From NCBI GenBank assembly GCA_038145705.1, contig JAYQQF010000009.1, forward strand, positions 68,422 to 132,421: 64,000 nucleotides of DNA, written 5' to 3'. Origin of the DNA: Alphaproteobacteria bacterium. Its GTDB lineage: Bacteria; Pseudomonadota; Alphaproteobacteria; SMXQ01. Below the pieces are notes generated by a model. That model made no database searches. It was not told the DNA's origin and worked only from the letters and a program-made list of their open reading frames with translations. This document shows positions 28,787-45,865 of the stretch, piece after piece. How positions within the stretch are numbered: position 1 is the stretch's first letter; the number at the start of each line of letters is the position of its first letter. A program made the translations under genes and the position numbers.

Positions 28787-28798
28787 GGCGGTAGCGTG
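28787..28798 (+). promoter_or_regulatory. ops (operon polarity suppressor) element GGCGGTAGCGTG, the RfaH recruitment/pause site
   Basis: Exact 12/12 match to the canonical E. coli ops sequence on the non-template (coding) strand. It lies 53 nt after the rfaH-like stop and 36 nt before the first biosynthetic gene. Confidence 0.75.
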
Positions 28799-29772: not shown

Positions 29773-29786
29773 GTGGAGTTGTAAAC

Positions 29787-30791: not shown

Positions 30792-30813
30792 ACCGTTAGG
30801 GCACATAAAAACG

Positions 30814-32385
30814 ATGGCTGAACAAAAACCTTTCGATCGCCGTAGCCAGCCGCGCATGGCGCGCAACAAGATCCGCTCCATTGCGGAACTCGGCGAGATA
30901 TCTGCGCGCGCCAAGGCCGAGGGCCGCAAGGTCGTTCTCTGCCATGGCGTTTTCGACCTGTTGCACATGGGCCATGTCCGTCACCTTGAGGCCGCGCGCC
31001 GCGAAGGCCATGTCCTGTTCGTGACGCTGACCGCGGACAAGCATGTCAACAAGGGGCCCGGCCGGCCCGTCTTCACGGAACAGCTGCGCGCCGAGATGAT
31101 CGGATCGGTCGAATATGTCGATTGGGTCGGCATCAACGAAGCGCCCAGCGCGGAGCCCGTTCTTCAGGCCATCAAGCCCGATATCTACGTCAAGGGCAGC
31201 GACTACAAGAACCCGGGCGAGGACGTCACGGGCCGCATCGTTTCCGAACAGGAGGTTGTGGAGGCCCACGGCGGAAAGATCGTTTTCACCGACGACATCG
31301 TTTTTTCCTCGTCGGCGCTGATCAACCAGCATCTGGGGATTTACGAGCCGACGCTTCAGGCCTATCTCGGGCGGCTGCGCGACGAAGGCCGCCAGCAGCA
31401 GCTTCTCGATGCGATTGAGCGGCTCAGAGATCTCAAGGTCGTGGTCATCGGCGATGCCATTATCGACGAGTACCAGTACGTCCAGCCGATGGGCCGTTCG
31501 GCCAAGGAAAACATGATCGCGACCCTGTTCCAGGAACGCGAGGTCTTTGCCGGGGGCGTCTTCGCCGCGGCCAACCATGTCGCCGATTTCTGCGAGAACG
31601 TCACGGTCATCACCGGTTTCGGCGGCTACGACACCTACGAGGAAATGGCGCGCGGCAGCCTCAAGCCGAACATCTCGCTTCGGGCCGTATACCGGAAGGA
31701 AGCGCCGACCACGCGGAAGTGCCGCTTCATCGACCATGGCTATTCGATGCGCAAGATGTTCGAGGTCTACTTCATGGACGACAGGCCGTTGTCTGAAGAA
31801 AGCAGGCTGTCTCTAAACCGAGAGATTGAAAAAGCAATCACGGACGCCGATGTAGTCATTGTCACCGATTTCGGTCATGGCCTGCTTAGTGGCGACAGCA
31901 TCGCGCTTCTGGAGCAGAAATCGAAATTCCTCGCGGTGAATTCGCAGTCGAACGCCGGCAATCACGGCTACAACCTGGTCAGCAAATACAGGCGGGCGGA
32001 TTACGTGTGCGTCGACGGAACCGAGGCGCGGCTGGCGGTCCATGACAAATTTTCCGACATGGAAGATGTCGTAACAAAGCTTTTGCCCGGCCTGATTGAC
32101 TGCAACAACATCGTCGTCACGTTGGGCAAAAACGGCTGCTTCGCGTTCGACCGCAAGGCCGGCCTTTGCAAGGTTCCGGCCTTGACCAGTTCCATTGTCG
32201 ATACGGTCGGCGCGGGCGATGCGTTTTTCGCGCTCAGCGCGCCGATGGTAGCCGTCGGCCTGCCGATGGAACTGGTCGGCTTCTTCGGCAATGCGGCGGG
32301 CGCCATGAAGGTCGGCATCGTCGGCCACCGTTCCTCGGTCGAGAAAGTCCCGATGATCAAGTTCCTGACGGCGCTGCTGAAATAG
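30814..32385 (+). CDS. bifunctional heptose-1-phosphate nucleotidyltransferase / heptose-7-phosphate kinase-like protein (HldE-like, domains in reversed order)
   Basis: The N-terminus is an HxGH cytidylyltransferase-like domain (LCHGVFDLLHMGHVRHL...VTLTADKHVNKGPGRPV), as in HldE domain II. The C-terminus is a PfkB/ribokinase-family kinase (DTVGAGDAFF), as in HldE domain I. Confidence 0.65.
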   Translation: MAEQKPFDRRSQPRMARNKIRSIAELGEISARAKAEGRKVVLCHGVFDLLHMGHVRHLEAARREGHVLFVTLTADKHVNKGPGRPVFTEQLRAEMIGSVEYVDWVGINEAPSAEPVLQAIKPDIYVKGSDYKNPGEDVTGRIVSEQEVVEAHGGKIVFTDDIVFSSSALINQHLGIYEPTLQAYLGRLRDEGRQQQLLDAIERLRDLKVVVIGDAIIDEYQYVQPMGRSAKENMIATLFQEREVFAGGVFAAANHVADFCENVTVITGFGGYDTYEEMARGSLKPNISLRAVYRKEAPTTRKCRFIDHGYSMRKMFEVYFMDDRPLSEESRLSLNREIEKAITDADVVIVTDFGHGLLSGDSIALLEQKSKFLAVNSQSNAGNHGYNLVSKYRRADYVCVDGTEARLAVHDKFSDMEDVVTKLLPGLIDCNNIVVTLGKNGCFAFDRKAGLCKVPALTSSIVDTVGAGDAFFALSAPMVAVGLPMELVGFFGNAAGAMKVGIVGHRSSVEKVPMIKFLTALLK

Positions 32386-33357
32386 ATGATGGACGCAACC
32401 ACCCGCAAGGCGCTTTACCGTGCCATGAGCCGCATCCGCACCGTCGAGGAACGGATCGCGGACCTGTATCCCGAGCAGGAGATGCGCTGTCCGGTGCATC
32501 TGTGCATCGGGCAGGAGGCGGCGGAGGCCGGAACCGGTCTGGCGCTCGATCGGCGCGACTATGCGCTGTCGGGGCACCGGTCCCATGGCCATTACCTTGC
32601 CAAGGGCGGCGATCTCAAGGGCATGATGGCTGAAATCTACGGCAAGGCCACGGGATGCGCGGGCGGCAAGGGCGGCTCCATGCACCTTGTCGATCTCGAT
32701 GCCGGGTTCCTCGGCGCCGTGCCCATCGTCGGCAGCACCATTCCCATCGCCGTCGGCACCGCCTTCAGTTCGAAAATGAAGGGCGAGGACCGGGTGACCA
32801 TGGTCTTCTTCGGCGACGGCGCGACGGAGGCGGGCGTGTTTCACGAAAGCCTCAACTTCGCCGCCCTGCATGCTCTGCCCATCGTCTTCGTCTGCGAAAA
32901 CAACCTCTATTCCGTGTATTCGCCGATGGGCGTGCGCCAGCCTGACGGGCGTTCCATCGCCGGGATTGCCGCGGCCCATGGTGTCGCGACCCAAACGGGC
33001 GACGGCAATGATGCCGAGGCGGTCTTCACGCTCGCCAGCAAAGCAGTGGATGCTGCCCGGCGCGGACAGGGGCCGGTTTTCATCGAGCTTTCCACCTATC
33101 GCTGGCGCGAGCATTGCGGACCCAATTTCGACAATCACATCGGCTATCGCACCGAGGCCGAGTACGAGGAATGGCGGCAGCGAGATCCGCTGGCGCTCTA
33201 CCGCGCCCGGCTGATTGCCGACGGCGCCGCCACGGGCGCGGAACTCGCCGCCATCGATGCGGAACTCGCCGCCGAAATGGAGGACGCCGTAACGTTCGCG
33301 AAGTCCTCCCCGTTCCCGCCGCGCGAGAGCGCCGGCCAGCACATCTACGCTGAGTGA
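32386..33357 (+). CDS. thiamine-diphosphate-dependent dehydrogenase E1 component, alpha subunit (PDH/acetoin-DH E1-alpha-like)
   Basis: ThDP-binding motif GDGATEAG...NN and E1-alpha-like length and pattern. Confidence 0.8.
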   Translation: MMDATTRKALYRAMSRIRTVEERIADLYPEQEMRCPVHLCIGQEAAEAGTGLALDRRDYALSGHRSHGHYLAKGGDLKGMMAEIYGKATGCAGGKGGSMHLVDLDAGFLGAVPIVGSTIPIAVGTAFSSKMKGEDRVTMVFFGDGATEAGVFHESLNFAALHALPIVFVCENNLYSVYSPMGVRQPDGRSIAGIAAAHGVATQTGDGNDAEAVFTLASKAVDAARRGQGPVFIELSTYRWREHCGPNFDNHIGYRTEAEYEEWRQRDPLALYRARLIADGAATGAELAAIDAELAAEMEDAVTFAKSSPFPPRESAGQHIYAE

Positions 33358-33367
33358 GGGCCGCGCC

Positions 33368-34426
33368 GTGACCAGACAGATCAAGTTTTTCGAAGCGCTG
33401 CGCGAAGGCCTTGACCAGTGCATGGGGGCCGATGCCTCCGTCTACGTGATGGGCCTCGGCGTGCCCGATCCGGGCGGAATCTTCGGTTCGACCAAGGGGC
33501 TTGTGGAAAAATACGGGGCATCCCGGGTGCTCGACATGCCGCTCGCCGAAAACACCATGACAGGCGTTGCCATCGGTTCGGCGCTGACGGGACTGCGGCC
33601 GGTGCTGACCCACCAGCGCGTCGATTTTGCCATCCTGTCGATGGAGCAGCTCGTCAACCAGGCGGCCAAGTGGCACTACATGTTCGACGGGCGCATGCGC
33701 GTGCCGCTGGTCGTGCGCATGATCATCGGGCGCGGCTGGGGGCAGGGCCCGCAGCATTCCCAGAGCCTGCAGGCGATGTTCGCCCAGGTGCCGGGCCTCA
33801 AGGTGGTAATGCCGACCACGGCGTATGACGCCAAGGGTCTGCTGATCGCCGCCATCGAGGACGATAACCCGGTGGTCATGCTCGAGCACCGCTGGCTTTA
33901 CGGCATCGCCGACGATGTCCCCGAAGAGGCCTATCGGGTTCCGCTCGGCAAGGCCAAGATCATGCGCGAGGGCGGCGACGTCACCATCGTCGGGCTGTCC
34001 TACATGAGCCTGGAAAGCCTGCGCGCGGCAGATATTCTGAAGGGCTACGGCATTTCCGCCGAGGTCATCGACCTTCGTTCGCTGCGTCCCCTCGATGAAG
34101 CGACGATCCTGGCGTCGTTGCGCAAGACGGGCCGTCTTGTCGTCACCGATACGGCGCACGGGCCTTTCGGGGCGACGTCGGAGATCATGGCGCTCGCGGC
34201 GGAAAAGGCATTCGGCGCCCTCAAGGCGGCGCCGTCGCGGGTCTGCCTGCCCGATCATCCAGCACCGACCAGTCCGGCGCTTGCCGACGATTTCTATCCG
34301 CGCGCCGGCCACATCGCCGCCGCGGTGCTGCGCCAGTTGGGCCGCGAACCGGATGCCGCGCTGTTTGCGCCGCCCGCGGGCCGCCGCCTCGACCAGCCCG
34401 ATTCATCGTTTCAGGGGCCATTCTGA
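33368..34426 (+). CDS. E1 component beta subunit (transketolase-like pyrimidine-binding domain plus C-terminal domain)
   Basis: E1-beta pattern (MPLAENTMTGVAIG...RVPLVVR...VVMLEH...VTIVGLS). GTG start. Confidence 0.8.
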   Translation: MTRQIKFFEALREGLDQCMGADASVYVMGLGVPDPGGIFGSTKGLVEKYGASRVLDMPLAENTMTGVAIGSALTGLRPVLTHQRVDFAILSMEQLVNQAAKWHYMFDGRMRVPLVVRMIIGRGWGQGPQHSQSLQAMFAQVPGLKVVMPTTAYDAKGLLIAAIEDDNPVVMLEHRWLYGIADDVPEEAYRVPLGKAKIMREGGDVTIVGLSYMSLESLRAADILKGYGISAEVIDLRSLRPLDEATILASLRKTGRLVVTDTAHGPFGATSEIMALAAEKAFGALKAAPSRVCLPDHPAPTSPALADDFYPRAGHIAAAVLRQLGREPDAALFAPPAGRRLDQPDSSFQGPF

Positions 34427-35619
34427 TGAGTGAATTGCTTTCCAGCCTGTCGACGTCGCTCGGTACCGCTTGCGCAGTCTGTGGTGGGCCCACGGAGTCG
34501 ACCCTTGAACTGCCCGGGTTGCCTCTGACCGATACCTTCACGCGGACGCCGGTCGACAATCCCGTGAGCGGCATCGACCAGACGTTCAGGTTCTGCGAGG
34601 CCTGCGGGCACGGCCAGTTGGGGCATCAGGTCGCGCCCGAGGTGCTTTACGGCAGCAATTACTGTTTCCGCACATCGGCAAGCCCGACGGCGCGAAAGGG
34701 TACCGATTTCTTCATGTCGCTGCTGGACGAGGTAGCGGCAGGACGCCAGTTTCGCTCGGCCATCGATCTTGGCTGCAACGATCTTTTCCTTCTTGATCGT
34801 GTCGGCGACCGTGCCGCATTGCGCACAGGCGTCGATCCGATCTGGAAGGGGCGCGAGCATGAAATGGATGGCCAGCCCATCCGCGTGATCGGCGCCCCCA
34901 TCGAGGACGTGGATCTTTCCGTGCTGGACCAGAAGCCGGACCTCGTGATGTGCCGCCACACGCTCGAACACATCGCGCGTCCGCGCGATGTCGTTGCGGG
35001 ACTGCTGGCGGGCGCGGCTGACGATGCCATTTTCGTTTTCGAGGTTCCGGGCATCGAGGCTCTGGTCAACCGCTGTCGTTTCGACCAGGTGTTTCACCAG
35101 CATCTCCAGTATTTTTCGATGCGGTCGTTTCTGAAAATGCTGGAAGGCCTTGGCGCCAGGGCCATCGCGGTGAAGTCGCACTATCACGACTGGGGCGCCT
35201 TCGCGGTCGCGTTCGCCAAGGGTGGCGATGGTGGCGCGGCGCCCCTGCTGGATGCCCCGGACGGGGAGAAGATGTCTTCTCGGCTGAAGGTTTTCCGCTC
35301 GCAGATGGCTGCGAACGCGGAATTGATACGATTGATCGATGGACCGGCCTTCGGTTACGGCGCCGCGCAGATGTTGCCGGTGCTCGCCTATCACATGGGC
35401 ACGGATCTCGGGTTTCTCGACGCGGTGATCGATGACGATCCGGAAAAGGAAGGCGTATTCTACTGGAACCTGCCGGTCAGCATCCGGCCGCTCGCAGCGG
35501 TGGGAAGCCTCGATGCCGCGACGGTCCTGATTACGGCGGTCGACAGCGCGCAGCCCATTTTGCGCCGTCTTCTCGAAAGGCGGCCCCGTCACATCATTCA
35601 TCCCTTCAACATGATTTAA
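34426..35619 (+). CDS. C-methyltransferase-family protein (N-terminal zinc ribbon, SAM methyltransferase, C-terminal C-MT domain; TylC3/NDP-hexose C-methyltransferase-like)
   Basis: CAVCG...CEACGHG zinc-binding pairs, a methyltransferase core (IDLGCNDLF) and a long C-terminal domain, as in sugar C-methyltransferases. Confidence 0.6.
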   Translation: MSELLSSLSTSLGTACAVCGGPTESTLELPGLPLTDTFTRTPVDNPVSGIDQTFRFCEACGHGQLGHQVAPEVLYGSNYCFRTSASPTARKGTDFFMSLLDEVAAGRQFRSAIDLGCNDLFLLDRVGDRAALRTGVDPIWKGREHEMDGQPIRVIGAPIEDVDLSVLDQKPDLVMCRHTLEHIARPRDVVAGLLAGAADDAIFVFEVPGIEALVNRCRFDQVFHQHLQYFSMRSFLKMLEGLGARAIAVKSHYHDWGAFAVAFAKGGDGGAAPLLDAPDGEKMSSRLKVFRSQMAANAELIRLIDGPAFGYGAAQMLPVLAYHMGTDLGFLDAVIDDDPEKEGVFYWNLPVSIRPLAAVGSLDAATVLITAVDSAQPILRRLLERRPRHIIHPFNMI

Positions 35620-35640
35620 ATCGGAAGCAGGTCGCAACAG

Positions 35641-36330
35641 ATGTCAGACGGCAAAGCCAGGGAATTCCAGAACCAGAGCCAGATCGACGACTATGGGAGC
35701 CGTGGCGGCGTATCCTTCGGGCCGTGGACGAGCCACATCTGGCGCACCGACCCACGCCACCTCGCCTTTCTGATGTCGCGCTACAAGTTCATTTCGAAGA
35801 TGCTGGCCGGACGCGAAAAGGCCTTCGAGGTCGGCTGCGGCGATGCGGCGGGCACACCGGTCGTGCTGCAAACCGTGAAGCGCGTCTTCGCCATCGATTT
35901 CGAGCCGCTGGTTCTCGAGGATGCGCGCAGGCGCTATGCCGCGGAAGGAGACGACCGGGTGCGTTTCGCCGTTCACGATATCTGCAGCGCGCCGGTGGAT
36001 GAAAAAGGTTTCAACGGCGCCTATTGCCTGGACGTGATCGAGCACGTCCCCGCCGAGCGCGAAGCCCTTTTCATGCGCAACATCGTCGCATCCCTCGATC
36101 GCCACGGCGTGTTCATCATCGGCACGCCCAATGTGACGGCCCAGCAGTATTCCAGCCCGGCGAGCATGGAAGGGCATATCAACCTCAAGAGTGCCAAGAC
36201 GCTGCATGAACTGATGGCCGTTCATTTTCACAATGTTTTCGACTTTTCGATGAATGACGAAGTCGTGCACACGGGGTACTCGCCGATGGCGCATTACCTG
36301 TTCTGCATGGGCGTCGGGGTCAAGTCGTAG
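35641..36330 (+). CDS. class I SAM-dependent methyltransferase
   Basis: Motifs FEVGCGDAAG and CLDVIEHV. Confidence 0.65.
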   Translation: MSDGKAREFQNQSQIDDYGSRGGVSFGPWTSHIWRTDPRHLAFLMSRYKFISKMLAGREKAFEVGCGDAAGTPVVLQTVKRVFAIDFEPLVLEDARRRYAAEGDDRVRFAVHDICSAPVDEKGFNGAYCLDVIEHVPAEREALFMRNIVASLDRHGVFIIGTPNVTAQQYSSPASMEGHINLKSAKTLHELMAVHFHNVFDFSMNDEVVHTGYSPMAHYLFCMGVGVKS

Positions 36331-36353
36331 GAACTGGCGCGGGGTATCGAATC

Positions 36354-37133
36354 ATGGACCTTGGAATCAAAGGCAAGCTGGCGCTGGTGACGGGGGCGGG
36401 TCGCGGCCTTGGCCGCGCGATTGCGAAGTCCCTTGCCGACGAGGGCGCGCGGGTCGTCGCGACGTCGCGGACGGAAGCCGACCTCGATGAATTGATGGCC
36501 GAGATCGGCGGAACTGGCGCCGGGCATCTTTCGGTCCCGATGGACATCGTGCCCGAGGGCGGGCCGGCGGAGCTTTTGCGCAAGTCACGCGAAGGCGGTT
36601 TCGATCATTTCGACATCGCCGTCCATAACGTCGGCGGGACCCTCGACATAAAGGATCCTTTCTGCTCCGTCGAGGACTGGCGGCGCGTCTACCGCTTCAA
36701 CTTCGAGGTCGCGGTCGAGCTGAACGCCTTGATCGTGCCCGCCATGCAGAAGCGCAAATGGGGCCGTGTCGTGCATATTTCCTCGATTTCGGCGATGGAA
36801 AACCATGGTCCCGTCACCTATTGCGCGATGAAGGCGGCATTGACCGCCTATACCCGCAGTTTCGGCGGCGTTGTCGCGCCCGACGGCGTGGTGATCTCGG
36901 CTGTCCTGCCGGGCGCCGTATTCACCGAAGGCGGTTACTGGGATACCACATCGCGGGAAAACCCCGAGCATGTGCGCAAGTATCTGACGGAACGTCAGCG
37001 CATCGGCCGCTTCGGCCGGCCCGAGGAAATCGGTAACTACGTAGCCTACCTCTGTTCCGAACTCGCATCCTTCAGCACGGGCAGCATCGTGCCGGTGGAC
37101 GGCGGGCAGGGCAGGGGCTATTTCGGCCAGTAA
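36354..37133 (+). CDS. SDR family oxidoreductase
   Basis: TGAGRGLG with a YxxxK core (YCAMKAA). Confidence 0.8.
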   Translation: MDLGIKGKLALVTGAGRGLGRAIAKSLADEGARVVATSRTEADLDELMAEIGGTGAGHLSVPMDIVPEGGPAELLRKSREGGFDHFDIAVHNVGGTLDIKDPFCSVEDWRRVYRFNFEVAVELNALIVPAMQKRKWGRVVHISSISAMENHGPVTYCAMKAALTAYTRSFGGVVAPDGVVISAVLPGAVFTEGGYWDTTSRENPEHVRKYLTERQRIGRFGRPEEIGNYVAYLCSELASFSTGSIVPVDGGQGRGYFGQ

Positions 37134-37164
37134 TCAGGGCCAGTAATCAGGGCAGGAACCCAAT

Positions 37165-37953
37165 ATGACCGCCAACGTGCTCAACAAGGATTTGCGCCGG
37201 CTGATCGTCGACATGACTGTCGCCGGGCGCGACGGGCATATCCCGAGCGCCTTCTCGATCGTGGATATCATCACCTATCTTTACGACCATGTTCTTCGGA
37301 TCGATCCGAAGAAACCGGATGATCCCGCGCGCGATTATTTCGTCCTCAGCAAGGGGCATGGATGCCTGGCGCTTTACGTCAACCTGCGCCGGCATGGGTT
37401 CATTACCGATCACGATATCGACACCTTCTGCAAGAAGGGCGGGATCCTCGGCGAGCATCCCGATCTGTGCAAGGTGCCGGGCGCCGAAGCGTCGTCGGGC
37501 TCCCTCGGCCATGGGCTCAGTTTTGCGGTCGGCATCGCGATGGGGCACAAGATCAAGAAGATGAACAACCGCATGTTCGTCCTGATCGGCGATGGCGAAA
37601 GCCACGAAGGCACCGTCTGGGAAGCAGCCCATGTCGCGGCCAATCACCGGCTGAAGAACCTCTGCGTGATCGTCGACTGGAACCGCTCGGGCATGCAGCT
37701 TCTGCCGATGGACGACCTGCCGGCGAAGTGGCGGGCCTTCGGCTGGCACACCCAGGAAATCGACGGCCACGACGAGGCCCAGATCAAGGCTGCCTGCGAT
37801 GCGGTCGCGGCCAAGACGACGGACCAGCCGAGCGTGATCGTTGCTCATACGGTCAAAGGCAAGGGCGTGCCGATGATCGAAGGACACGGCATGTGGCATC
37901 ACCGCATTCCCAACAAGGACGAATACGCTCACATCATGGAAGTGTTGTCATGA
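37165..37953 (+). CDS. transketolase, N-terminal (ThDP-binding) subunit of a split transketolase
   Basis: HIPSAFSIVDI...LSKGHG...GSLGHGL...GDGESHEG, the transketolase N-section. Confidence 0.8.
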   Translation: MTANVLNKDLRRLIVDMTVAGRDGHIPSAFSIVDIITYLYDHVLRIDPKKPDDPARDYFVLSKGHGCLALYVNLRRHGFITDHDIDTFCKKGGILGEHPDLCKVPGAEASSGSLGHGLSFAVGIAMGHKIKKMNNRMFVLIGDGESHEGTVWEAAHVAANHRLKNLCVIVDWNRSGMQLLPMDDLPAKWRAFGWHTQEIDGHDEAQIKAACDAVAAKTTDQPSVIVAHTVKGKGVPMIEGHGMWHHRIPNKDEYAHIMEVLS

Positions 37954-38882
37954 CCCCGGAAAAAGCCCTGCGTCAGCAGTTCGCCGATACCATGCTGGCG
38001 GTCGGCCAGGAAGACAGAGACCTCGTCGTCATCGTCGGCGACATCAGTCACGGCATCCTCCAGCCCTTCGCCAAGGCCTGCCCGGAGCGTTATTTCAACA
38101 TCGGCATCCTTGAACCGACGACCATGAGCCTGACCGCCGGCATGGCCCGCGTCGGTTTGTATCCGGTGCTGCACACGATCGCCCCGTTCCTGATCGAGCG
38201 CTCGTTCGAGCAGATCAAGCTCGATTTCTGCTATCACAAGCTGCACGGCAACATCATCACCGTGGGCAGCGCCTTCGACTATTCGAACCTCGGCTGTACC
38301 CATCACTGTTACGGCGACTTCGCCTTGCTCAAGACCCTGCCGGGTGTCGAGATCACCTACCCGGGATCGGCCGTCGAGTTCGATGCGCTCTTCCGTCAGG
38401 CCTATCGCAACGACAAGGTGACCTATTACCGCCTGCCCGGTACGCCGCACGGGGTCGTGTTCAAGCCCGAGGACGTCGTGCTAGGCAGGGGCATCAAGGT
38501 GGCAGAGGGGTCCGATATCACCCTGATCGGGACCGGCCCGCACCTGCGCACCGCACTGGATGTGCGTGACCGCCTGGCGGCCGAAGGCAAGAGCGCCGAG
38601 GTGCTCTACATCCATACCATCCGCCCCCTCGATTGCGAGCTGGTGCGCGCGAGCATTGCCAAGACCCGGAGGGCCGTGGTGATCGAGGAACACATGCGAT
38701 CGGGCGGGCTCGGCGACGAGGTGCTGAGAGAAACGCGGGACATTCCCGATGTCAAGTTTGCCTCCGCTTCGATCCCGGACCGCTTTGTCACCGGCTACGG
38801 TACCTACGAGGACCTGCTCGAGAGCATCGGGCTGACGGTTGATGGGGTCCTGTCGCTGATCGCGGAAAAGCGTTTCTTCTGA
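37950..38882 (+). CDS. transketolase, C-terminal (pyrimidine-binding plus C-terminal domain) subunit
   Basis: ATGA overlap with the upstream subunit. Transketolase C-section motifs (YFNIGILEPTTMSLTAG...). Confidence 0.8.
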   Translation: MTPEKALRQQFADTMLAVGQEDRDLVVIVGDISHGILQPFAKACPERYFNIGILEPTTMSLTAGMARVGLYPVLHTIAPFLIERSFEQIKLDFCYHKLHGNIITVGSAFDYSNLGCTHHCYGDFALLKTLPGVEITYPGSAVEFDALFRQAYRNDKVTYYRLPGTPHGVVFKPEDVVLGRGIKVAEGSDITLIGTGPHLRTALDVRDRLAAEGKSAEVLYIHTIRPLDCELVRASIAKTRRAVVIEEHMRSGGLGDEVLRETRDIPDVKFASASIPDRFVTGYGTYEDLLESIGLTVDGVLSLIAEKRFF

Positions 38883-38893
38883 AAGTCAGGGAA

Positions 38894-39892
38894 ATGAGCA
38901 ACGAGCGCACGCGAGCCATTGTTCTGGAACAGGTCGCTGCCCTTTCGGGCAAGGCGGATACGGTGGTTTCCGTCTGGGACACGCAGATTTTCCCGCTGAC
39001 CGTCGGCGGGCTGCTCATCGGGTTGCAGGAAATCCTGATGCTGCGCGCGCTCGTGGGGGCGCGGCGCGGCGTTCTTTGCGTGATTTCCCCGAAGGATGCC
39101 GGAGGCGGCGTGGCATTCAGGGCCGGCGATGCCGTGCCGAACCCGCTCGTGGAATTTGCGATGGCGACGCAAGCCATCGAGGAGTTCCATTACCTGCCCG
39201 ACCACGCTGCGGTTGCCGGCGTTGTCGCCGGGCGCTCCGCCCTGCTCTGGCCGTCCGAAACGGTTGCGCGGGAGCGGGCCCATGTTTATGGCACCACGCT
39301 TTACCTTCAGGCCCTTTACGACAGGCTCGGCAGGTTGCCGATGCTCTCGGTAGCAGGTCCCGCAAAAGAGTGGGCTCGGCGGTTTCTGGCTGAAAAATTC
39401 GGCGCCCGCCCGGTCATCGCCCTGCACCTGAAGAACAAGCCTGGTGCGATCAACGAAAGCAACGCGAATTTCCCCGCCTGGGCGGAATTCCTCGCAGAGG
39501 CGCCGGTGCGCCACGAGTGCGGCTTCGTCCTCGTCGGCAACGAGCCGGTGCCTGATTCGGTTCGGTCCCTGCCGCATGTCGTGCTCGCAGCCGACCATGG
39601 CAGCGCCTTGTGCCGCGATCTCGCCCTGATCGACTGTGCCCAGGCGTTCATGGGCATGGCGAGCGGCCTTTGCCAGATGGCGATGTTCGGTTCGAAGCCC
39701 TACATCGTGTTCAAGAATCCCGGACACCATGCCCCGGAAATGCAGCTTGAGCTTGGCGATGCCGATGGCTTCAACTTTTCGGGCAGGGCGCAGAAACTGC
39801 TGCGCATCCTTGATTCCCAAGATGTCCTTTTCCGCGAGTTCGGCGACGTTCTCGATGCTCTCGAATGCGGGACCGAGGAGGCCAGAACATGA
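38894..39892 (+). CDS. hypothetical protein, glycosyltransferase family 9 (heptosyltransferase)-like
   Basis: A weak GT9-like pattern (RPVIALHLKNKPGA...FVLVGNEP...ALIDCAQAFMGMASGLCQMAMFGSKPYIVF). Confidence 0.4.
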   Translation: MSNERTRAIVLEQVAALSGKADTVVSVWDTQIFPLTVGGLLIGLQEILMLRALVGARRGVLCVISPKDAGGGVAFRAGDAVPNPLVEFAMATQAIEEFHYLPDHAAVAGVVAGRSALLWPSETVARERAHVYGTTLYLQALYDRLGRLPMLSVAGPAKEWARRFLAEKFGARPVIALHLKNKPGAINESNANFPAWAEFLAEAPVRHECGFVLVGNEPVPDSVRSLPHVVLAADHGSALCRDLALIDCAQAFMGMASGLCQMAMFGSKPYIVFKNPGHHAPEMQLELGDADGFNFSGRAQKLLRILDSQDVLFREFGDVLDALECGTEEART

Positions 39893-40695
39893 CCAGTGGA
39901 ATTTCCGGAAAGATTGCACTCGTGACCGGCGGGGGCAGCGGCATCGGGGCCAATATTTCGAAAAAGCTGGCGGCGCTTGGCGCCCATGTCTGGATGTTCG
40001 GCCTGCACGAGGAGAACCTTGTCCGGACCGCGGATGAAATCCGCCGTGACGGCGGGTCGGCGGAGTTCCGCGTGACGGATTTTGCAAAGCCCCATGCTCC
40101 CGAAGAGGCCGTGCGCCTTGTCGTTTCGCACGCCGGCCGCATCGATATTCTGGTCAACAATGCACGCAACCGGCAGCGGACGAATCTGCAGACGGAGACG
40201 CTTGAAAGCTGGAATGAATCGATTGCAGTGCTGCTGAGCCTGCCTTTTTTCGCCTCCCAAGAGGCCATGAAAAGCATGGAAGCCCGGAAATCCGGGTGCA
40301 TCGTCAACATCAGTTCGACCTCGGGCCTGTATTCGAGCCATGAGTCGCCCGCCTATCATGTGACCAAGGCGGCACTCATTCATCTGACCCGGTATCTTGC
40401 CAACCGGGGCGGCCCTTCGGGTATCCGGGTGAATACCGTCACCCCTGGTTTCATCATCAAGGATGAACATAGGGCGCGATACCAAGGCGACGGAAACGAG
40501 GCTTTTCGCGAAATGGTGGAATACATCCATCCGCTGCGGCGCCCCGGTTACCCGGATGATGTCGCCGAGGCGGTCGCCTTTCTCGCTTCGGATGAGGCGG
40601 CCTTCATCACCGGTCAGAATTTGACGGTTGATGGCGGCCTTGTCGACCAGGGGCCGTGGGAATTGTTGACGGGTTATCTCAAGGACAGGGAATAA
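39889..40695 (+). CDS. SDR family oxidoreductase
   Basis: TGGGSGIG with YHVTKAA. ATGA overlap with the upstream gene. Confidence 0.8.
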   Translation: MTSGISGKIALVTGGGSGIGANISKKLAALGAHVWMFGLHEENLVRTADEIRRDGGSAEFRVTDFAKPHAPEEAVRLVVSHAGRIDILVNNARNRQRTNLQTETLESWNESIAVLLSLPFFASQEAMKSMEARKSGCIVNISSTSGLYSSHESPAYHVTKAALIHLTRYLANRGGPSGIRVNTVTPGFIIKDEHRARYQGDGNEAFREMVEYIHPLRRPGYPDDVAEAVAFLASDEAAFITGQNLTVDGGLVDQGPWELLTGYLKDRE

Positions 40696-40784
40696 ATTCA
40701 GTCTTCATGTGATCAGGTAAGTACTGCCTTGCGAAAATCTTGCGGGGCCATCTGCAAAAGGGAAAAGTCCAAAAAGGATAGCCA

Positions 40785-41453
40785 ATGGGTCAGGAAATCA
40801 ATCTTCTCTCGGAATATCCGCGTTCCAAACGACCGATCGACGATCGCGCCAAGCTGATTACCGAAGAGCATCGCGCCGTCGCCCGCAAATTTGGCCCGGA
40901 ATTCTTCGATGGGGACCGGCTGACCGGGTATGGAGGGTTTAATTACCATCCGAGGTTCTGGACCGATACGGTGCGCCGGTTCCGCGATCATTACAATCTG
41001 GCATCCGACGCGCGGGTTCTCGATGTCGGCTGCGCCAAGGGCTTCATGATATATGACTTCAAGCTGCTGATGCCTGAAGCTGATGTGCGCGGTATCGATG
41101 TTTCCAGCTACGCGATAGAGCATGCGAAAGAAGAGGTTCGGGAGTTCGTGCAGGTTGCCGATGCAATGCAGCTGCCATATCCCGACAACTCCTTCGATCT
41201 TGTGATCTCGATAAACACTATCCATAACCTGCCTCTTGATCAGTGCAAGCAGGCTTTGCGGGAAATCCAGCGCGTATCGAAAAAAAACGCCTTCGTAACG
41301 ATGGACGCTTGGCGCAACGAAGCGGAAAAAAAGGCGATGCTCGCGTGGAATCTCACCGCGCTCACCTACATGCATGTGGATGACTGGAAAAAAGTTTTTG
41401 ATGAGGTCGGTTACACCGGTGACTACTATTGGTTCATTGCTGAATCGGCCTGA
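40785..41453 (+). CDS. class I SAM-dependent methyltransferase
   Basis: Motifs VLDVGCAKG and DLVISINTIHNL. Confidence 0.7.
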   Translation: MGQEINLLSEYPRSKRPIDDRAKLITEEHRAVARKFGPEFFDGDRLTGYGGFNYHPRFWTDTVRRFRDHYNLASDARVLDVGCAKGFMIYDFKLLMPEADVRGIDVSSYAIEHAKEEVREFVQVADAMQLPYPDNSFDLVISINTIHNLPLDQCKQALREIQRVSKKNAFVTMDAWRNEAEKKAMLAWNLTALTYMHVDDWKKVFDEVGYTGDYYWFIAESA

Positions 41454-41474
41454 TTCGACTGGGACCCTGCTCCG

Positions 41475-42470
41475 TTGTCATCCTTAAGACCGGATTTAGG
41501 AACGATCGCGAGGCTGTTGATCGGTTTCGCCCTGCTAGGGCTGCTTTATTACCAGGGGGCGCTGGATCCGGTATGGCTGTTGAACCTGTTCCAGAACAAG
41601 GCCCATGCCAGCCTGGCGATATTGCTGCTGTTTGCGACCGTTCCCCTGTCTGCCGTGCGGTGGCACATACTGCTTCGTGCCGCGGGCCATCGCCAGGCGT
41701 TCAGCAGCAAGATGCGGATGGCTTTCATCGCCAATTTTTTCAACGTCTTCCTGCCCGGATTATTCGGCAGCGATTTCGTGCGGGCGACACTGGCCGTGCG
41801 CGGCGCCCATGAGCGTTATACGGGACTCGCGCTTTCCGTCATCGCTGACCGGCTGATCGGTCTCGGCGGGTTGATCATTCTCGGCGCCATTGTCGTGTTA
41901 TGCGGTGGCGTACAGCCGATGGGCCAGATTGCCGTCCTGATTCTGCCTCTTTTGATTGGGTACGTAATGGGTATAGCGATCGTGGTTTCGCCGGCGCGCG
42001 CCTTGGTGACGAATTTGATGCGGCGGTTCATTCCATCGGGACAAAAAGTAAATGTCTTCATCGAAGAGGTAAGTACGACGCTGAGGTCTTGCAGCGACCG
42101 CTTCCTTGTGTTGTGCCTCGCTCTGGCGCTCTCGGTCATGCTCAGCGTAATGTCGGTCGCCGGTCTCGTGTTTATTGCTGCTGGACTGGGCAGCCTGAGC
42201 CTGCCGGTTCTGACCTTTGGTGCCATCGGCACGCTATCCCTCCTCGCCAACGCGATTCCGCTGACGCCTGTTGGAATCGGAGTTGGGGAGTTAGCCTTTA
42301 TCCACTTCGCCGAAGTGGCCAGCAATGAAGCCGTTGGTTCTATGGCGATGGTATTTCTCGGCTACAGGATGTTTTCCATAATGGTCGGGCTGACGAGACT
42401 GGTGCCCTTTATCCTCTCGCACTGCGCAAAAAATTCTGTCGAAGGACAGCAAAAGGAGCACGTGTCATGA
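41475..42470 (+). CDS. flippase-like domain (lysylphosphatidylglycerol synthase TM region / UPF0104) integral membrane protein
   Basis: About 8 predicted TM helices and the UPF0104-typical RW..LLRA motif near the N-terminus. Confidence 0.55.
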   Translation: MSSLRPDLGTIARLLIGFALLGLLYYQGALDPVWLLNLFQNKAHASLAILLLFATVPLSAVRWHILLRAAGHRQAFSSKMRMAFIANFFNVFLPGLFGSDFVRATLAVRGAHERYTGLALSVIADRLIGLGGLIILGAIVVLCGGVQPMGQIAVLILPLLIGYVMGIAIVVSPARALVTNLMRRFIPSGQKVNVFIEEVSTTLRSCSDRFLVLCLALALSVMLSVMSVAGLVFIAAGLGSLSLPVLTFGAIGTLSLLANAIPLTPVGIGVGELAFIHFAEVASNEAVGSMAMVFLGYRMFSIMVGLTRLVPFILSHCAKNSVEGQQKEHVS

Positions 42471-43522
42471 GTGCGCCAACCATTCAGGCACGCGCCGCGG
42501 TGTTGTCGCAGATCGGGTGTCCACTCGAACTGGTCGATCTCGAGATTCCGGAACTCAAGCCTGGACAGGTCCTGGTCGATATCGCCTGGAGCGGCGTCTG
42601 TCACAGCCAGCTCAACGAAGTCGAAGGCCTTCGCGGACCTGATCCATATATTCCGCATGCTTTGGGACATGAAGGCAGCGGCATCGTCAGGAGCATCGGC
42701 GGTGACGTCGCGAAGGTCCGTCAGGGCGATCGGGTCGTATTGACCTGGATCAAGGGTACCGGCGCCGATGTTCCCGGGACCGTCTATGGGAGCAAGCTTG
42801 GGGCGATCAATTCCGGCGCGGTCAGTACCTTCATGACGAGAGCGGTGGTCAGCGAAAACCGCATCGTACGTATTCCGGATGATTTCCCATTGCGTGAGGC
42901 GGCTTTGTTGGGTTGCGCCGTCCCGACGGGAGCGGGTATCGTCTTCAACACGCTATCGCCCAAGTCGGGCCAATCCATCGCGGTATTCGGTATCGGCGGG
43001 GTCGGCGTGAGCGCCGTCATGGCCGCGGCGATGTTGGGCGCCGGCCCCATCATCGCGGTGGATCTCAACGACGACCGCTTGGCAATTGCCAGGCGCTTCG
43101 GCGCCACACACCTCATCAATGCCGTGCGCGAAGACGTGCTTGCCGCGATCCGTGAAGCGACGGGAGGACAGGGCGTCGATTTCTCGATAGAGGCTGCCGG
43201 CCGCAGCCAGACGATGGAAAATGCCTTTGCCGCGGTCCGTGGCGCCGGAGGGCTGTGCGTGGTGGCCGGAAATCCGCCTCATGGCACGAAGGTAAGTATC
43301 GACCCCTATGATCTCATTCGCGGCAAGCGGCTGGCGGGGTCCTGGGGCGGCGATTCGCGCCCGGACCGCGATATCCCGGTTTACGCGGGCCTTTATCGAG
43401 ACGGCAAAATGCCCCTCGATCTTTTCTCCGGCAGGGAATACGGACTCGACGCAATCAATGCCGCATTGGATGACCTCAGGACAGGCCGCGTCCTGCGTCC
43501 GCTGATCAACATGTCGTCATGA
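42467..43522 (+). CDS. zinc-binding alcohol dehydrogenase family (MDR) oxidoreductase
   Basis: GHEGSG catalytic-zinc motif and the Rossmann motif GIGGVG. Confidence 0.8.
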   Translation: MSAPTIQARAAVLSQIGCPLELVDLEIPELKPGQVLVDIAWSGVCHSQLNEVEGLRGPDPYIPHALGHEGSGIVRSIGGDVAKVRQGDRVVLTWIKGTGADVPGTVYGSKLGAINSGAVSTFMTRAVVSENRIVRIPDDFPLREAALLGCAVPTGAGIVFNTLSPKSGQSIAVFGIGGVGVSAVMAAAMLGAGPIIAVDLNDDRLAIARRFGATHLINAVREDVLAAIREATGGQGVDFSIEAAGRSQTMENAFAAVRGAGGLCVVAGNPPHGTKVSIDPYDLIRGKRLAGSWGGDSRPDRDIPVYAGLYRDGKMPLDLFSGREYGLDAINAALDDLRTGRVLRPLINMSS

Positions 43523-45065: not shown

Positions 45066-45668
45066 CTAGTCGCCGTGTCTGCTGGCGTGCTTCAGAATAT
45101 GGGCCGCCGCCGCGCTCAGGTCGGGGAAAATCGCCGTCGCCCGTGGCAGTCCTCGTTCTTTTTCATGTGCCAGCCGATCGATTTCCTTGGCGCCATGGCC
45201 ACTTCGCAGCAGGTAGGTGGTGCCGAGCCCTGCATTGATGCCGGCTTCGATGTCGGTAAGCGTGTCACCGATCATAATGCTGGACGAAAGCTCGATACAG
45301 AAATCGCGGGCGGCCTGCAGAAGGAGACCCGGGCCCGGTTTTCTGCAGTCGCTCGCGCGCCGATAGGCTTCAACAGAAGCTTCAGGATGGTAGGGCGAAA
45401 AATATATTGCGTCGATTTTTGCGCCCTCTATCGCAAGAAGAGTCAGAAGCCGTTCGTGTATTTTTTCGAGCCCCTCCTCACTGAGGTACCCACGGGCAAT
45501 CGCGGATTGATTTGTCACGACGATGACAAGCCATCCCGCAAGATTGAGCGATCGCACGGCTTCCGCCGCGCCAGACAGCAATGCGATCTGATCCGGATCC
45601 GTGATGTAACTTTGCTCACGGTTCAGAACGCCGTCGCGGTCCAGAAAAATTGCACTCCTTTTCCGCAT
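45066..45668 (-). CDS. gmhB: D-glycero-D-manno-heptose 1,7-bisphosphate phosphatase (HAD-IIIA)
   Basis: Motifs FLDRDGVLN, VVTNQS and KP..G. About 200 aa. It is the only minus-strand gene inside the locus. Confidence 0.8.
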   Translation of the reverse strand: MRKRSAIFLDRDGVLNREQSYITDPDQIALLSGAAEAVRSLNLAGWLVIVVTNQSAIARGYLSEEGLEKIHERLLTLLAIEGAKIDAIYFSPYHPEASVEAYRRASDCRKPGPGLLLQAARDFCIELSSSIMIGDTLTDIEAGINAGLGTTYLLRSGHGAKEIDRLAHEKERGLPRATAIFPDLSAAAAHILKHASRHGD

Positions 45669-45865
45669 CGTGTGATGACCTTGGCAAAACTCTCGCGTCT
45701 CAAGTCCGCCCATCCGCAGCGGGTAACGCCCAGAATCTTAGATTGTTTTCAACGAGTCAATTCTTGGTACGCAGGGCACCCATTCTCGGCGCCCCAGGGC
45801 ATGGACATTAAAAATATCCGGCAACAACGGCGATGTATCGAGCCTTATAAGGCGGAGTCAACGAC

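What the first reader, a model, noticed from the sequence alone, without database searches (positions are those of the whole stretch)
37165..38882. Split transketolase (N- and C-terminal subunits, ATGA-coupled) embedded in the glycan locus
A second ThDP-dependent C2-transfer system sits in the same operon as the E1-like pair. The simplest hypothesis is a dedicated supply of sedoheptulose 7-phosphate (the GmhA substrate) for the heptose branch. Alternatively it may make a higher-carbon (octose/nonose) sugar. Split transketolases in surface-polysaccharide loci are uncommon, so this one merits attention.
Basis: inference. Interest (0 to 1): 0.55.

Follow-up and report, generated by a model that had tools for sequence, protein, structure and literature searches.

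The report
Sugar-tailoring split transketolase in glycan operon
The two overlapping genes do encode a two-piece transketolase, but it belongs to a large, unstudied branch of the family that has lost the usual sugar-phosphate binding site, so it most likely adds a two-carbon piece to an unusual cell-surface sugar and is not part of central metabolism.

Summary
TK-N (37165-37953) and TK-C (37950-38882) overlap in ATGA, carry the transketolase domains and sit in a long + strand glycan operon next to a stand-alone E1alpha/beta pair.

- The pair belongs to a conserved family (46-83% identity; 298 matching genome stretches across many phyla).
- The family keeps every cofactor and catalytic residue of transketolase.
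- It has replaced three of the four sugar-phosphate ligands (S385, H461, R520, E. coli numbering) and the acceptor-recognising D469.
- Protein engineers mutated three of these positions (S385, D469, R520) to make E. coli transketolase accept non-phosphorylated aldehydes.

Gene neighbourhoods show an accessory module (methyltransferase, short-chain dehydrogenase, TK-N, TK-C). It sits in a variable slot of a commoner cassette: GmhA/HldE/GmhB-like enzymes, a 4,6-dehydratase-like enzyme, E1alpha/beta, a methyltransferase and a Zn-ADH. That cassette usually lacks the transketolase.

Best reading (inferred): a ThDP carboligase transfers a C2 ketol unit onto a carbonyl of a non-phosphorylated, probably nucleotide-linked, heptose-derived intermediate. 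This resembles the still unproven role proposed for split transketolases in miharamycin and amipurimycin biosynthesis. Verdict: a new variant of a known kind, of moderate to good interest.

The parts
37165..37953 (+). TK-N: N-terminal (ThDP diphosphate-binding) subunit of the split transketolase-family enzyme, 262 aa
   Evidence: PF00456, 139 bits. 6yak, 189 bits. Residues H26, H66, H100, D155, N185 and H261 (E. coli numbering) are conserved in 79/79 family pairs.
37950..38882 (+). TK-C: pyrimidine-binding plus C-terminal domain subunit, 310 aa. Its start overlaps the TK-N stop (ATGA).
   Evidence: PF02779 and PF02780. 6yaj, 152 bits. E411, H473 and R358 are kept. S385 is replaced by G/F/Y, H461 by G, D469 by L, and R520 is not Arg.
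36354..37133 (+). Classical short-chain dehydrogenase (FabG/acetoin-reductase-like), the most constant neighbour of the TK pair
   Evidence: PF13561/PF00106. Present next to the TK in 68 of 82 loci. Co-varies with the TK in E1beta-seeded loci.
34426..35619 (+). C-methyltransferase-type enzyme (Zn-binding Methyltransf_13, Methyltransf_23 and C-MT C-terminal domain), part of the TK module
   Evidence: Found in 58 of 82 TK loci, directly upstream of the SDR or downstream of TK-C.
35641..36330 (+). Class I SAM methyltransferase (MT1)
   Evidence: Found in 29 of 82 loci.
32386..33357 (+). Stand-alone E1 alpha (ThDP) subunit, core cassette
   Evidence: PF00676, 236 bits. TIGR03182 scores 306 bits, below its cut-off of 394. 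No E2 or E3 in the operon.
33368..34426 (+). Stand-alone E1 beta subunit, core cassette
   Evidence: PF02779 and PF02780. Found in 62 of 82 TK loci.
30814..32385 (+). Bifunctional nucleotidyltransferase-kinase: HldE-like domains in reversed order (CTP_transf_like then PfkB)
   Evidence: rfaE_dom_II 110 bits, rfaE_dom_I 105 bits, both below cut-off. Found in 49 of 82 loci.
29745..30791 (+). NDP-sugar 4,6-dehydratase-like extended SDR (start codon uncertain)
   Evidence: PF16363, 157 bits. TIGR01181 scores 205 bits, below its cut-off of 365.
28834..29772 (+). NDP-sugar epimerase/reductase-like extended SDR
   Evidence: PF01370.
38894..39892 (+). GT-B fold protein, distantly GT9 (heptosyltransferase)-like, with no Pfam match
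   Evidence: AF2 pLDDT 76, pTM 0.79. Foldseek: 3tov E 1e-6, TM 0.50; WaaF 1psw TM 0.50. Found in 24 of 82 loci.
39889..40695 (+). Second classical SDR (acetoin/butanediol-dehydrogenase-like)
   Evidence: Start taken from the gene called on the identical metagenome contig.
40785..41453 (+). Class I methyltransferase MT2, core cassette, usually paired with the Zn-ADH
   Evidence: Found in 58 of 82 TK loci, and in TK-less cassettes.
42467..43522 (+). Zn-dependent alcohol dehydrogenase, core cassette
   Evidence: Found in 57 of 82 loci.
45066..45713 (-). GmhB-like heptose 1,7-bisphosphate phosphatase
   Evidence: NF006506 scores 168.7 bits (cut-off 178); TIGR00213 scores 141.5 bits (cut-off 149.6). 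Motif found.
28236..28733 (+). RfaH-like NusG paralogue at the head of the operon
   Evidence: TIGR01955, 119 bits (cut-off 144.5); PF02357.
28787..28798 (+). ops-like element GGCGGTAGCGTG in the operon leader
   Evidence: The only match to GGCGGTAGNNTG in the window; 0.08 expected by chance.

Best explanation
The two genes encode the halves of a heteromeric, thiamine-diphosphate-dependent enzyme of the transketolase superfamily. It belongs to a large non-canonical clade.

Shown:
- The cofactor site and the catalytic histidines that handle the dihydroxyethyl-ThDP intermediate are intact.
- The pocket that holds the phosphate and the 2-hydroxyl of normal sugar-phosphate substrates has been rebuilt.
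- The pair travels with a short-chain dehydrogenase and a methyltransferase as an accessory module. The module sits in a variable slot of a more widespread cassette of HldE/GmhA/GmhB-like enzymes, a 4,6-dehydratase-like enzyme, an epimerase/reductase, a stand-alone E1alpha/beta, a methyltransferase and a Zn-ADH.

Inferred:
- The enzyme takes a two-carbon ketol (glycolaldehyde/hydroxyacetyl) unit from a ketose or hydroxypyruvate donor.
- It adds that unit to a carbonyl of a non-phosphorylated, most likely nucleotide-linked, heptose-derived intermediate.
- The neighbouring SDR either creates that carbonyl or reduces the resulting alpha-hydroxyketone.
- The result is a C-branched (ketone acceptor) or chain-extended (aldehyde acceptor) higher sugar, which the glycosyltransferases and exporter of the same RfaH/ops-controlled operon put on the cell surface.

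It is neither the housekeeping transketolase nor a supplier of sedoheptulose 7-phosphate.
For: Identity and split architecture.

Active site, 79 family pairs aligned to E. coli TktA:
- H26, H66, H100, D155, N185, H261, E411 and H473 are invariant; R358 is kept in 78/79.
- H461 is G in 79/79 and D469 is L in 78/79.
- S385 is F/G/Y, and R520 is G/A/E/K/D.
- The same signature appears in nearly all of the best 150 cluster representatives; the canonical H..D..HQ..R pattern appears in only 2-3.
- The engineered E. coli TK S385Y/D469T/R520Q moves acceptor preference from phosphorylated aldehydes to non-phosphorylated and non-polar ones (PMC5073344 abstract).

Context: of 82 loci seeded with TK-C, TK-N is present in 81, the SDR in 68, E1beta in 62, the C-MT in 58, MT2 in 58, the Zn-ADH in 57, the HldE-like gene in 49 and the GmhA-like gene in 28.

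Accessory nature:
- Only 3 of 80 loci seeded with the cassette's E1beta carry the TK, and 0 of 24 loci with at least 5 kb on both sides.
- L090 has the window's gene order at 56-77% identity, but different genes lie between E1beta and MT2.
- In a distant clade (L170) the TK pair occupies the place of E1alpha/beta, between the HldE-like gene plus epimerase and the Zn-ADH.
- Another distant clade sits between a PglF-like dehydratase, a PglC-like transferase and a DegT aminotransferase.

Precedent: split-gene TKs have been proposed, though not shown, to add a hydroxyacetyl branch to a keto sugar in miharamycin and amipurimycin biosynthesis. E1alpha/beta enzymes (alphaKADH2 type) add acetyl branches to keto sugars (PMC12247030).
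Against: - There is no biochemical or structural datum for any member of this clade. The reaction, the donor and the acceptor are all inferred.
- R358 is retained and new invariant histidines appear (DISH, THH, H167 of TK-C). An anionic group, whether a phosphate or a nucleotide diphosphate, may therefore still be bound, and a phosphorylated substrate is not excluded.
- The adjacent SDR is of the classical type, not the extended type usual for nucleotide-sugar enzymes.
- No donor-supplying gene (for example for hydroxypyruvate) was seen in the cassette.
- The neighbourhood comparison is correlative, and many metagenome contigs are short.
- Relatedness to the miharamycin and amipurimycin TKs was not tested.
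Confidence: 0.55

Rival explanations
1. Chain extension, not branching. The enzyme adds the C2 ketol unit to a terminal aldehyde (for example a C6 or C7 aldehyde of a nucleotide-linked hexose or heptose). The product would be an octulose- or nonulose-type side chain, that is a linear higher-carbon sugar.
For: Aldehydes are the native acceptor class of transketolases. The catalytic histidines are all kept. An SDR and a Zn-ADH that could make an aldehyde are in the cassette. Some loci carry two TK pairs (L028, L056), which would suit stepwise extension.
Against: D469, which reads the 2-hydroxyl of aldose acceptors, is replaced by Leu throughout the family. In L170 the TK occupies the position that the ketone-branching E1alpha/beta has elsewhere, just after the dehydratase/epimerase-type enzymes. 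The C-methyltransferase partner is of the type that acts next to a ring ketone. None of this is decisive.
Confidence: 0.2
2. Dedicated or housekeeping transketolase that supplies sedoheptulose 7-phosphate to GmhA for the heptose branch.
For: The locus really has a heptose-type branch: HldE-like, GmhB-like, and GmhA-like nearby. R358 and all cofactor and catalytic residues are present. No other TK is in the 64-kb window.
Against: Three of the four phosphate ligands and D469 are replaced in the family: H461 in 79/79 and D469 in 78/79 pairs, while S385 and R520 are non-canonical in the family. The same heptose/E1 cassette usually lacks the TK. The TK clusters with an SDR and methyltransferases, not with GmhA/HldE. 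TK modules also occur in loci with no heptose genes (L087). The pair is only 24% identical to E. coli TktA and 36% to a genuine split TK, against 46-73% within the family.
Confidence: 0.07
3. A DXS- or E1-like acyloin synthase that decarboxylates an alpha-keto acid (pyruvate or a longer one) and transfers an acyl-anion equivalent. It would be functionally parallel to the E1alpha/beta pair, not a ketol transferase.
For: TK-C scores almost as well against DXS models as against TK models: 113 versus 141 bits in NCBIfam and about 75 bits against DXS structures. The family has lost the TK phosphate site. In L170 the TK replaces E1alpha/beta.
Against: TK-N is clearly TK-like: PF00456 scores 139 bits and DXP_synthase_N 34 bits. 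H26, H261, H66, H100 and H473, which in TK bind the hydroxyls of the ketose donor and of dihydroxyethyl-ThDP, are all invariant. Where both are present, a second acetyl-transferring enzyme next to E1alpha/beta would be redundant.
Confidence: 0.1
4. The enzyme acts on a free small metabolite, not on the sugar nucleotide. For example, it might build a short hydroxyketone that is later attached to the glycan or used as a donor by another enzyme.
For: The substrate pocket lost its sugar-phosphate features. The partner SDRs resemble acetoin/butanediol dehydrogenases, which act on small acyloins.
Against: The pair is consistently embedded among nucleotide-sugar enzymes in three independent clades. 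No transferase for such a small unit is evident.
Confidence: 0.08

Closest known systems
Split-chain transketolase of Carboxydothermus hydrogenoformans (PDB 6YAK/6YAJ), a canonical EC 2.2.1.1 enzyme encoded by two genes
   Same: The same two-gene architecture (TK_N, then Pyr plus C domain). It is the best solved match (189 and 152 bits). The GDG...N ThDP/Mg motif, the activating Glu and all catalytic His are shared.
   Different: Only about 36% identity. The canonical enzyme has S385, H461, D469 and R520. The window's family has G/F/Y, G, L and a non-Arg residue at these positions, plus 39 family-invariant residues that differ from both canonical references (E. coli TktA and this split transketolase), many of them near the active site. 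The genomic context is a glycan operon, not central metabolism.
Split-gene transketolases proposed for hydroxyacetyl branching of a keto sugar in miharamycin and amipurimycin biosynthesis, plus 13 predicted Streptomyces BGC TKs (PMC12247030)
   Same: A split TK placed among sugar-tailoring genes next to an oxidoreductase. The same inferred chemistry applies: C2 ketol transfer to a sugar carbonyl.
   Different: Those are actinomycete antibiotic clusters, reported as 'all from Streptomycetes', and their function is itself unproven. This one is in an RfaH/ops-type surface-glycan operon of a proteobacterium, and its family spans many phyla. Sequence relatedness could not be tested.
alphaKADH2-type E1alpha/beta sugar-branching enzymes (aldgamycin, kibdelomycin KbDH, avilamycin) and YerE-type lyases
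   Same: ThDP carboligases that add a C2 or longer unit to a nucleotide-linked keto sugar. An E1alpha/beta of this stand-alone kind lies 2.7 kb upstream in the same operon. In a distant clade the TK pair takes its place in the gene order.
   Different: A different ThDP superfamily branch and a different donor: pyruvate gives an acetyl unit, whereas the TK catalytic set points to a hydroxylated C2 unit.
Engineered E. coli transketolase S385Y/D469T/R520Q (PMC5073344)
   Same: The natural family differs from canonical TK at these three positions, and at H461. In the engineered enzyme the three changes shift acceptor use from phosphorylated to non-phosphorylated and non-polar aldehydes.
   Different: It is a laboratory variant of a fused housekeeping enzyme, and the residues chosen by nature differ (G/F/Y, L, various).

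Membership tests
Canonical transketolase EC 2.2.1.1 (including split-chain forms) | Domain set Transketolase_N + Transket_pyr + Transketolase_C, here spread over two adjacent genes | tested here: met
   Pfam E-values 1.9e-40, 1.4e-16 and 2.9e-22. Best PDB hits are 6yak and 6yaj.
Canonical transketolase EC 2.2.1.1 (including split-chain forms) | ThDP/Mg2+ motif (D155...N185) and cofactor-activating Glu411 | tested here: met
   Invariant in 79/79 family pairs, including the window.
Canonical transketolase EC 2.2.1.1 (including split-chain forms) | Catalytic histidines H26, H66, H100, H261, H473 (E. coli numbering) | tested here: met
   Invariant in 79/79.
Canonical transketolase EC 2.2.1.1 (including split-chain forms) | Sugar-phosphate binding residues R358, S385, H461, R520 | tested here: not met
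   Only R358 is kept. S385 is G/F/Y, H461 is G (79/79) and R520 is G/A/E/K/D.
Canonical transketolase EC 2.2.1.1 (including split-chain forms) | Asp469, which binds the 2-hydroxyl of the aldose acceptor | tested here: not met
   Leu in 78/79 family pairs and in the window.
Canonical transketolase EC 2.2.1.1 (including split-chain forms) | Score above the curated NCBIfam equivalog cut-off | tested here: inconclusive
   NF004559 gives 240 bits for TK-N and 141 bits for TK-C against a cut-off of 488. The model is for a fused protein, so neither half could reach the cut-off alone.
Canonical transketolase EC 2.2.1.1 (including split-chain forms) | Catalyses Xu5P + R5P <-> S7P + G3P | not testable with these tools
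   Needs an enzyme assay.
TK-type sugar C-branching carboligases (proposed for miharamycin/amipurimycin) | Split TK genes embedded among sugar-nucleotide tailoring genes, with an adjacent oxidoreductase | tested here: met
   The operon map. An SDR lies next to the TK in 68 of 82 loci. Distant clades also lie in glycan or NDP-sugar loci.
TK-type sugar C-branching carboligases (proposed for miharamycin/amipurimycin) | Sequence relatedness to the miharamycin and amipurimycin TK subunits | not tested
   Those sequences were not obtainable. The primary papers are not held.
TK-type sugar C-branching carboligases (proposed for miharamycin/amipurimycin) | [quoted passage not shown] | not testable with these tools
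   This is unproven even for the reference enzymes (PMC12247030).
TK-type sugar C-branching carboligases (proposed for miharamycin/amipurimycin) | Location in an actinomycete secondary-metabolite gene cluster | tested here: not met
   The window is a surface-glycan operon with an RfaH-like gene, an ops element, glycosyltransferases, a flippase-like gene and an ABC exporter. The closest genomes are Rhodospirillales and other Gram-negatives.
1-deoxy-D-xylulose-5-phosphate synthase (DXS) | Single chain of about 620 aa with a DXP_synthase_N-type N-terminal domain | tested here: not met
   There are two chains. DXP_synthase_N scores 34 bits against 139 bits for Transketolase_N. DXS NCBIfam scores of 110-113 bits fall far below cut-offs of 395-466.

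The most novel reading that the evidence does not exclude
The non-canonical split-transketolase clade is a general, so far unrecognised family of sugar-nucleotide C2-branching or C2-extending enzymes of surface-glycan loci across bacteria and some archaea. The clade has 471 cluster representatives (at the 50%-identity level) with E <= 1e-30, and almost all of the best 150 share the G461/L469/HH signature. In this operon it would cooperate with the E1alpha/beta pair and a C-methyltransferase to build a previously undescribed heptose-derived sugar of 11 carbons or more with several C-branches.
Probability: 0.35. Interest if true: 0.75.

Novelty: new variant of a known kind. Interest (0 to 1): 0.6.

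Why it matters
- Transketolase-type C2 transfer onto sugars outside central metabolism has only been proposed for two nucleoside antibiotics, and it has never been demonstrated.
- If this family does that chemistry, it would give a natural, widespread source of enzymes that make hydroxyacetyl-bearing tertiary alcohols or extended sugars. Biocatalysis groups are currently trying to engineer this activity.
- It would also point to a class of complex, multiply branched heptose-derived sugars on the surfaces of many environmental bacteria whose structures are unknown.
- The natural substitutions at positions S385, H461, D469 and R520 overlap those found by directed evolution (S385, D469, R520). 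That gives a direct structure-function test.
- For genome annotation, these genes should not be counted as pentose-phosphate-pathway transketolase.

Tried and rejected
- Housekeeping or S7P-supply reading: rejected on active-site and neighbourhood evidence.
- Looking up the exact TK-C protein to find the source contig returned nothing. The neighbour P0121 only led to short JGI/Logan metagenome contigs, so the organism is known only as close to Rhodospirillales MAGs.
- A second transketolase was sought in the window and none found.
- Literature searches linked transketolase with heptose, C-methyltransferase, O-antigen, E1 component, bradyrhizose and caryophyllose. They found no description of this cassette. 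Only the 2025 review (PMC12247030) was relevant.
- Krug et al. 2024 and Romo et al. 2019 are not held.
- I considered that the product might be a known higher sugar (caryophyllose, caryose or bradyrhizose). Nothing links the locus to them, so this stays speculation.
- A GmhB motif search in the related loci found it in only 2 of them, so the phosphatase is usually encoded elsewhere.
- The promoter/terminator scan of 26.5-41.5 kb gave nothing above shuffled expectation.
- I did not model the TK heteromer. The tool returns no coordinates, so pocket geometry could not be examined.
Full report
OBSERVATION

The window carries two + strand ORFs at the stated coordinates.
- ORF 37165-37953 (262 aa) matches Transketolase_N (PF00456, E 1.9e-40).
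- The ORF starting at the ATG of the ATGA at 37950-37953 and ending at 38882 (310 aa) matches Transket_pyr and Transketolase_C.
- A GGAAG lies 8 nt before the second start.
- The best solved relatives are the two chains of the split transketolase of Carboxydothermus hydrogenoformans (6yak 189 bits, 6yaj 152 bits).

The split is not a sequencing artefact. In 81 related loci the two halves are separate adjacent ORFs. Their start and stop overlap by four bases in most of them: ATGA in 46, GTGA in 8 and TTGA in 8.

THE OPERON

From 28236 to about 53300, nearly all genes are on the + strand with gaps of 0-100 nt. In order they are:
- an RfaH-like NusG paralogue (28236-28733);
- an exact ops consensus GGCGGTAGCGTG in the 100-nt leader (28787-28798), the only match in the window, with 0.08 expected by chance;
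- an epimerase/reductase-like SDR;
- a dTDP-glucose-4,6-dehydratase-like SDR;
- a fused nucleotidyltransferase-PfkB kinase related to the two HldE domains, but in reversed order;
- E1alpha and E1beta, with no E2 or E3 anywhere in the operon;
- a C-methyltransferase-type protein and a methyltransferase;
- a classical SDR;
- TK-N and TK-C;
- a protein without Pfam match;
- a second SDR and a methyltransferase;
- a flippase-like membrane protein;
- a Zn-ADH and a GT4;
- further unknown genes, an ABC exporter and a GT2;
- a second sugar-nucleotide set (RmlB-like, RmlA-like, DegT, and others).

A GmhB-like phosphatase lies on the minus strand at 45066-45713 (168.7 bits, cut-off 178). A GmhA-like gene lies 10 kb upstream at 18400-19020. 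The protein without Pfam match (38894-39892) models as a GT-B fold closest to GT9 heptosyltransferases (pLDDT 76; 3tov E 1e-6, TM 0.50).

THE FAMILY

TK-C has a deep, well conserved family.
- The best 120 clusters are 63-100% identical to it.
- A scan of one genome per species found 298 matching stretches. The 80 best (46-81% identity) come from Alpha-, Beta-, Gamma- and Deltaproteobacteria, Planctomycetes, Omnitrophota, Chlamydiae, Chloroflexota, Nitrospirae, Bacillota, Verrucomicrobia and a few archaeal MAGs.
- The window pair is 34.5-73% identical to the family pairs (median 55%), 36% to the Carboxydothermus split enzyme and 24% to E. coli TktA.

ACTIVE SITE

I aligned 79 family pairs with E. 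coli TktA and the Carboxydothermus enzyme.
- All residues for cofactor binding and catalysis are invariant: H26, H66, H100, D155, N185, H261, E411 and H473.
- R358 is kept in 78/79.
- The residues that in canonical transketolases bind the substrate phosphate are replaced: S385 is F/G/Y, H461 is G in 79/79, and R520 is G/A/E/K/D.
- D469, which binds the acceptor's 2-hydroxyl, is Leu in 78/79.
- Thirty-nine positions are invariant in the family and differ from both references. Many lie around these sites, for example DISH, HTI, FDY and THHCY.

That these residues bind the phosphate and the 2-hydroxyl is established knowledge from the yeast and E. coli structures and mutants. The review-level statement that the S385Y/D469T/R520Q variant moves acceptor use from phosphorylated to non-phosphorylated and non-polar aldehydes is in PMC5073344.

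An exhaustive HMMER search found 471 cluster representatives (at the 50%-identity level) with E <= 1e-30. Nearly all of the best 150 show G at 461, a non-Asp residue (mostly Leu) at 469 and HH at 473/474. The canonical pattern appears only two or three times. The window's enzyme is therefore one member of a large non-canonical clade.

NEIGHBOURHOOD

Among 82 loci seeded with TK-C, the window's genes recur as follows:
- TK-N 81, upstream SDR 68, E1beta 62;
- C-methyltransferase 58, MT2 58, Zn-ADH 57, E1alpha 52;
- HldE-like 49, dehydratase-like 47, epimerase-like 40;
- a GmhA-like SIS protein 28, MT1 29, the GT-B protein 24, a further NTP_transferase 17.

The usual order is HldE-like, GmhA-like, two extended SDRs, (MT2), E1alpha, E1beta, C-MT, SDR, TK-N, TK-C..., MT2, Zn-ADH. 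Variable extras include radical-SAM enzymes, a DegT aminotransferase, a PhyH-like protein, aldo-keto reductases and glycosyltransferases. The TK's constant partners are an SDR and a methyltransferase, not GmhA/HldE.

THE REVERSE TEST

I seeded a metagenome scan with the cassette's E1beta (53-70% identity to the window's).
- Only 3 of 80 loci carry TK-N/TK-C.
- None of the 24 loci with at least 5 kb on both sides carries it.
- Many of these loci do contain the HldE-like, GmhA-like, dehydratase-like, epimerase-like, E1alpha, MT2 and Zn-ADH genes.
- The C-MT and the SDR appear in the loci that have the TK (L110, L152).
- L090 has the window's gene order at 56-77% identity, but a different SDR, an unknown gene and an FkbM-type methyltransferase lie between E1beta and MT2.

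The methyltransferase-SDR-TK set is thus an accessory module in a variable slot of a commoner cassette that works without it. Two more distant TK clades show the same habit.
- One sits between a PglF-like dehydratase, a PglC-like transferase and a DegT aminotransferase in a Wzx-type polysaccharide locus.
- The other sits exactly where E1alpha/beta sits elsewhere, between the HldE-like gene plus epimerase and a Zn-ADH.

INTERPRETATION

Shown:
- This is a ThDP enzyme of the transketolase superfamily with intact catalytic machinery.
- Its sugar-phosphate pocket has been rebuilt.
- It is an optional tailoring module of a nucleotide-heptose-type branched-sugar pathway.

Inferred:
- It still forms dihydroxyethyl-ThDP, because the histidines that hold the donor hydroxyls are invariant.
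- It transfers this C2 ketol unit to a carbonyl of a non-phosphorylated, probably nucleotide-linked, intermediate.
- The neighbouring SDR makes that carbonyl or reduces the alpha-hydroxyketone product. Both SDRs resemble acetoin/butanediol dehydrogenases.
- Whether the acceptor is a ring or branch ketone (giving a hydroxyacetyl branch) or an aldehyde (chain extension) is open. I lean towards a ketone because of the D469L change, the C-methyltransferase partner and the E1-equivalent position in L170.

This matches the role proposed, but never demonstrated, for split-gene transketolases in miharamycin and amipurimycin biosynthesis. A 2025 review states that the 13 further predicted cases are all from Streptomycetes and that none has been characterised (PMC12247030).

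The sedoheptulose-7-P supply idea conflicts with three findings: the lost phosphate ligands, the TK-less cassettes and the gene order. I give it about 7%. It cannot be fully excluded without the genome-wide tkt check and an assay. R358 and the new histidines could in principle still bind an anion. The 'higher-carbon sugar' alternative is compatible with everything seen.

NOVELTY AND LIMITS

My literature searches found no paper that describes this cassette or clade. The library does not hold most subscription papers, and I could not compare with the antibiotic-pathway TKs. All functional statements rest on homology and gene context. I rate it a new variant of a known kind, with interest 0.6.

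Noticed in passing
window 28236-28733 and 28787-28798 (+): An RfaH-like NusG paralogue is followed, in the 100-nt leader before the first cassette gene, by an exact ops consensus GGCGGTAGCGTG. It is the only match to GGCGGTAGNNTG in 64 kb, with 0.08 expected by chance. The whole roughly 25-kb glycan operon is probably under RfaH-type antitermination.
   Followed up: partly
window 45066-45713 (-), overlapping + ORF 44889-45869: A GmhB-like heptose-1,7-bisphosphate phosphatase (NF006506 168.7 bits, cut-off 178) is encoded on the minus strand inside the otherwise + strand locus. The 326-aa + strand ORF that covers it has no family match and is probably spurious.
   Followed up: partly
window 38894-39892 (+): The gene just after TK-C has no Pfam or NCBIfam match and few sequence relatives. 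It models as a GT-B fold closest to GT9 ADP-heptose heptosyltransferases (TM about 0.5). In 24 related loci it forms a unit with two SDR genes.
   Followed up: partly
window 30814-32385 (+): The HldE-like bifunctional enzyme has its two domains in the reverse order of E. coli HldE: nucleotidyltransferase first, PfkB kinase second. It scores well below both rfaE domain cut-offs. In 17 related loci a separate NTP_transferase gene sits next to it, so which domain activates the sugar is unclear.
   Followed up: no
L090 4857-16339 compared with window 28834-43522: A close relative of the window's locus (56-77% identity, same gene order) has a different SDR, an unknown 1.8-kb stretch and an FkbM-type methyltransferase between E1beta and MT2. 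The window has C-MT, MT, SDR, TK-N, TK-C, the GT-B protein and an SDR there. This stretch is a variable tailoring slot.
   Followed up: partly
L028 and L056 (Omnitrophota and Planctomycetales MAGs): These loci each carry two TK-N/TK-C pairs within 20 kb, which suggests two successive C2 additions or two alternative sugars.
   Followed up: no
L087-L089 and L170: More distant members of the non-canonical TK clade (34-35% identity) lie in other glycan or sugar-nucleotide loci. One is between a PglF-like dehydratase, a PglC-like transferase and a DegT aminotransferase. The other takes the place of E1alpha/beta next to an HldE-like gene and a Zn-ADH.
   Followed up: partly
window 50437-63869 (+): A second sugar-modification block follows the ABC exporter: GT2, RmlB-like dehydratase, RmlA-like nucleotidyltransferase, DegT aminotransferase, GT61, ATP-grasp, GFO/IDH/MocA oxidoreductase, Fe-ADH, an unknown gene, a radical-SAM enzyme and an FkbM methyltransferase.
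   Followed up: no
window 1-64000: GC content falls from 0.64-0.68 in the housekeeping part (1-24 kb; ClpB, M23 peptidase) to 0.60-0.64 in the TK/E1 cassette and 0.53-0.59 from 40 kb onward. This is typical of horizontally acquired surface-glycan loci.
   Followed up: no
window 18400-19020 (+): The GmhA-like SIS gene lies outside the operon, between a DUF4167 gene and clpB. It scores below the GmhA equivalog cut-off (126 versus 209 bits) and also matches DiaA. It is 40% identical to the in-cassette GmhA-like genes of related loci, and its role for this operon is uncertain.
   Followed up: no
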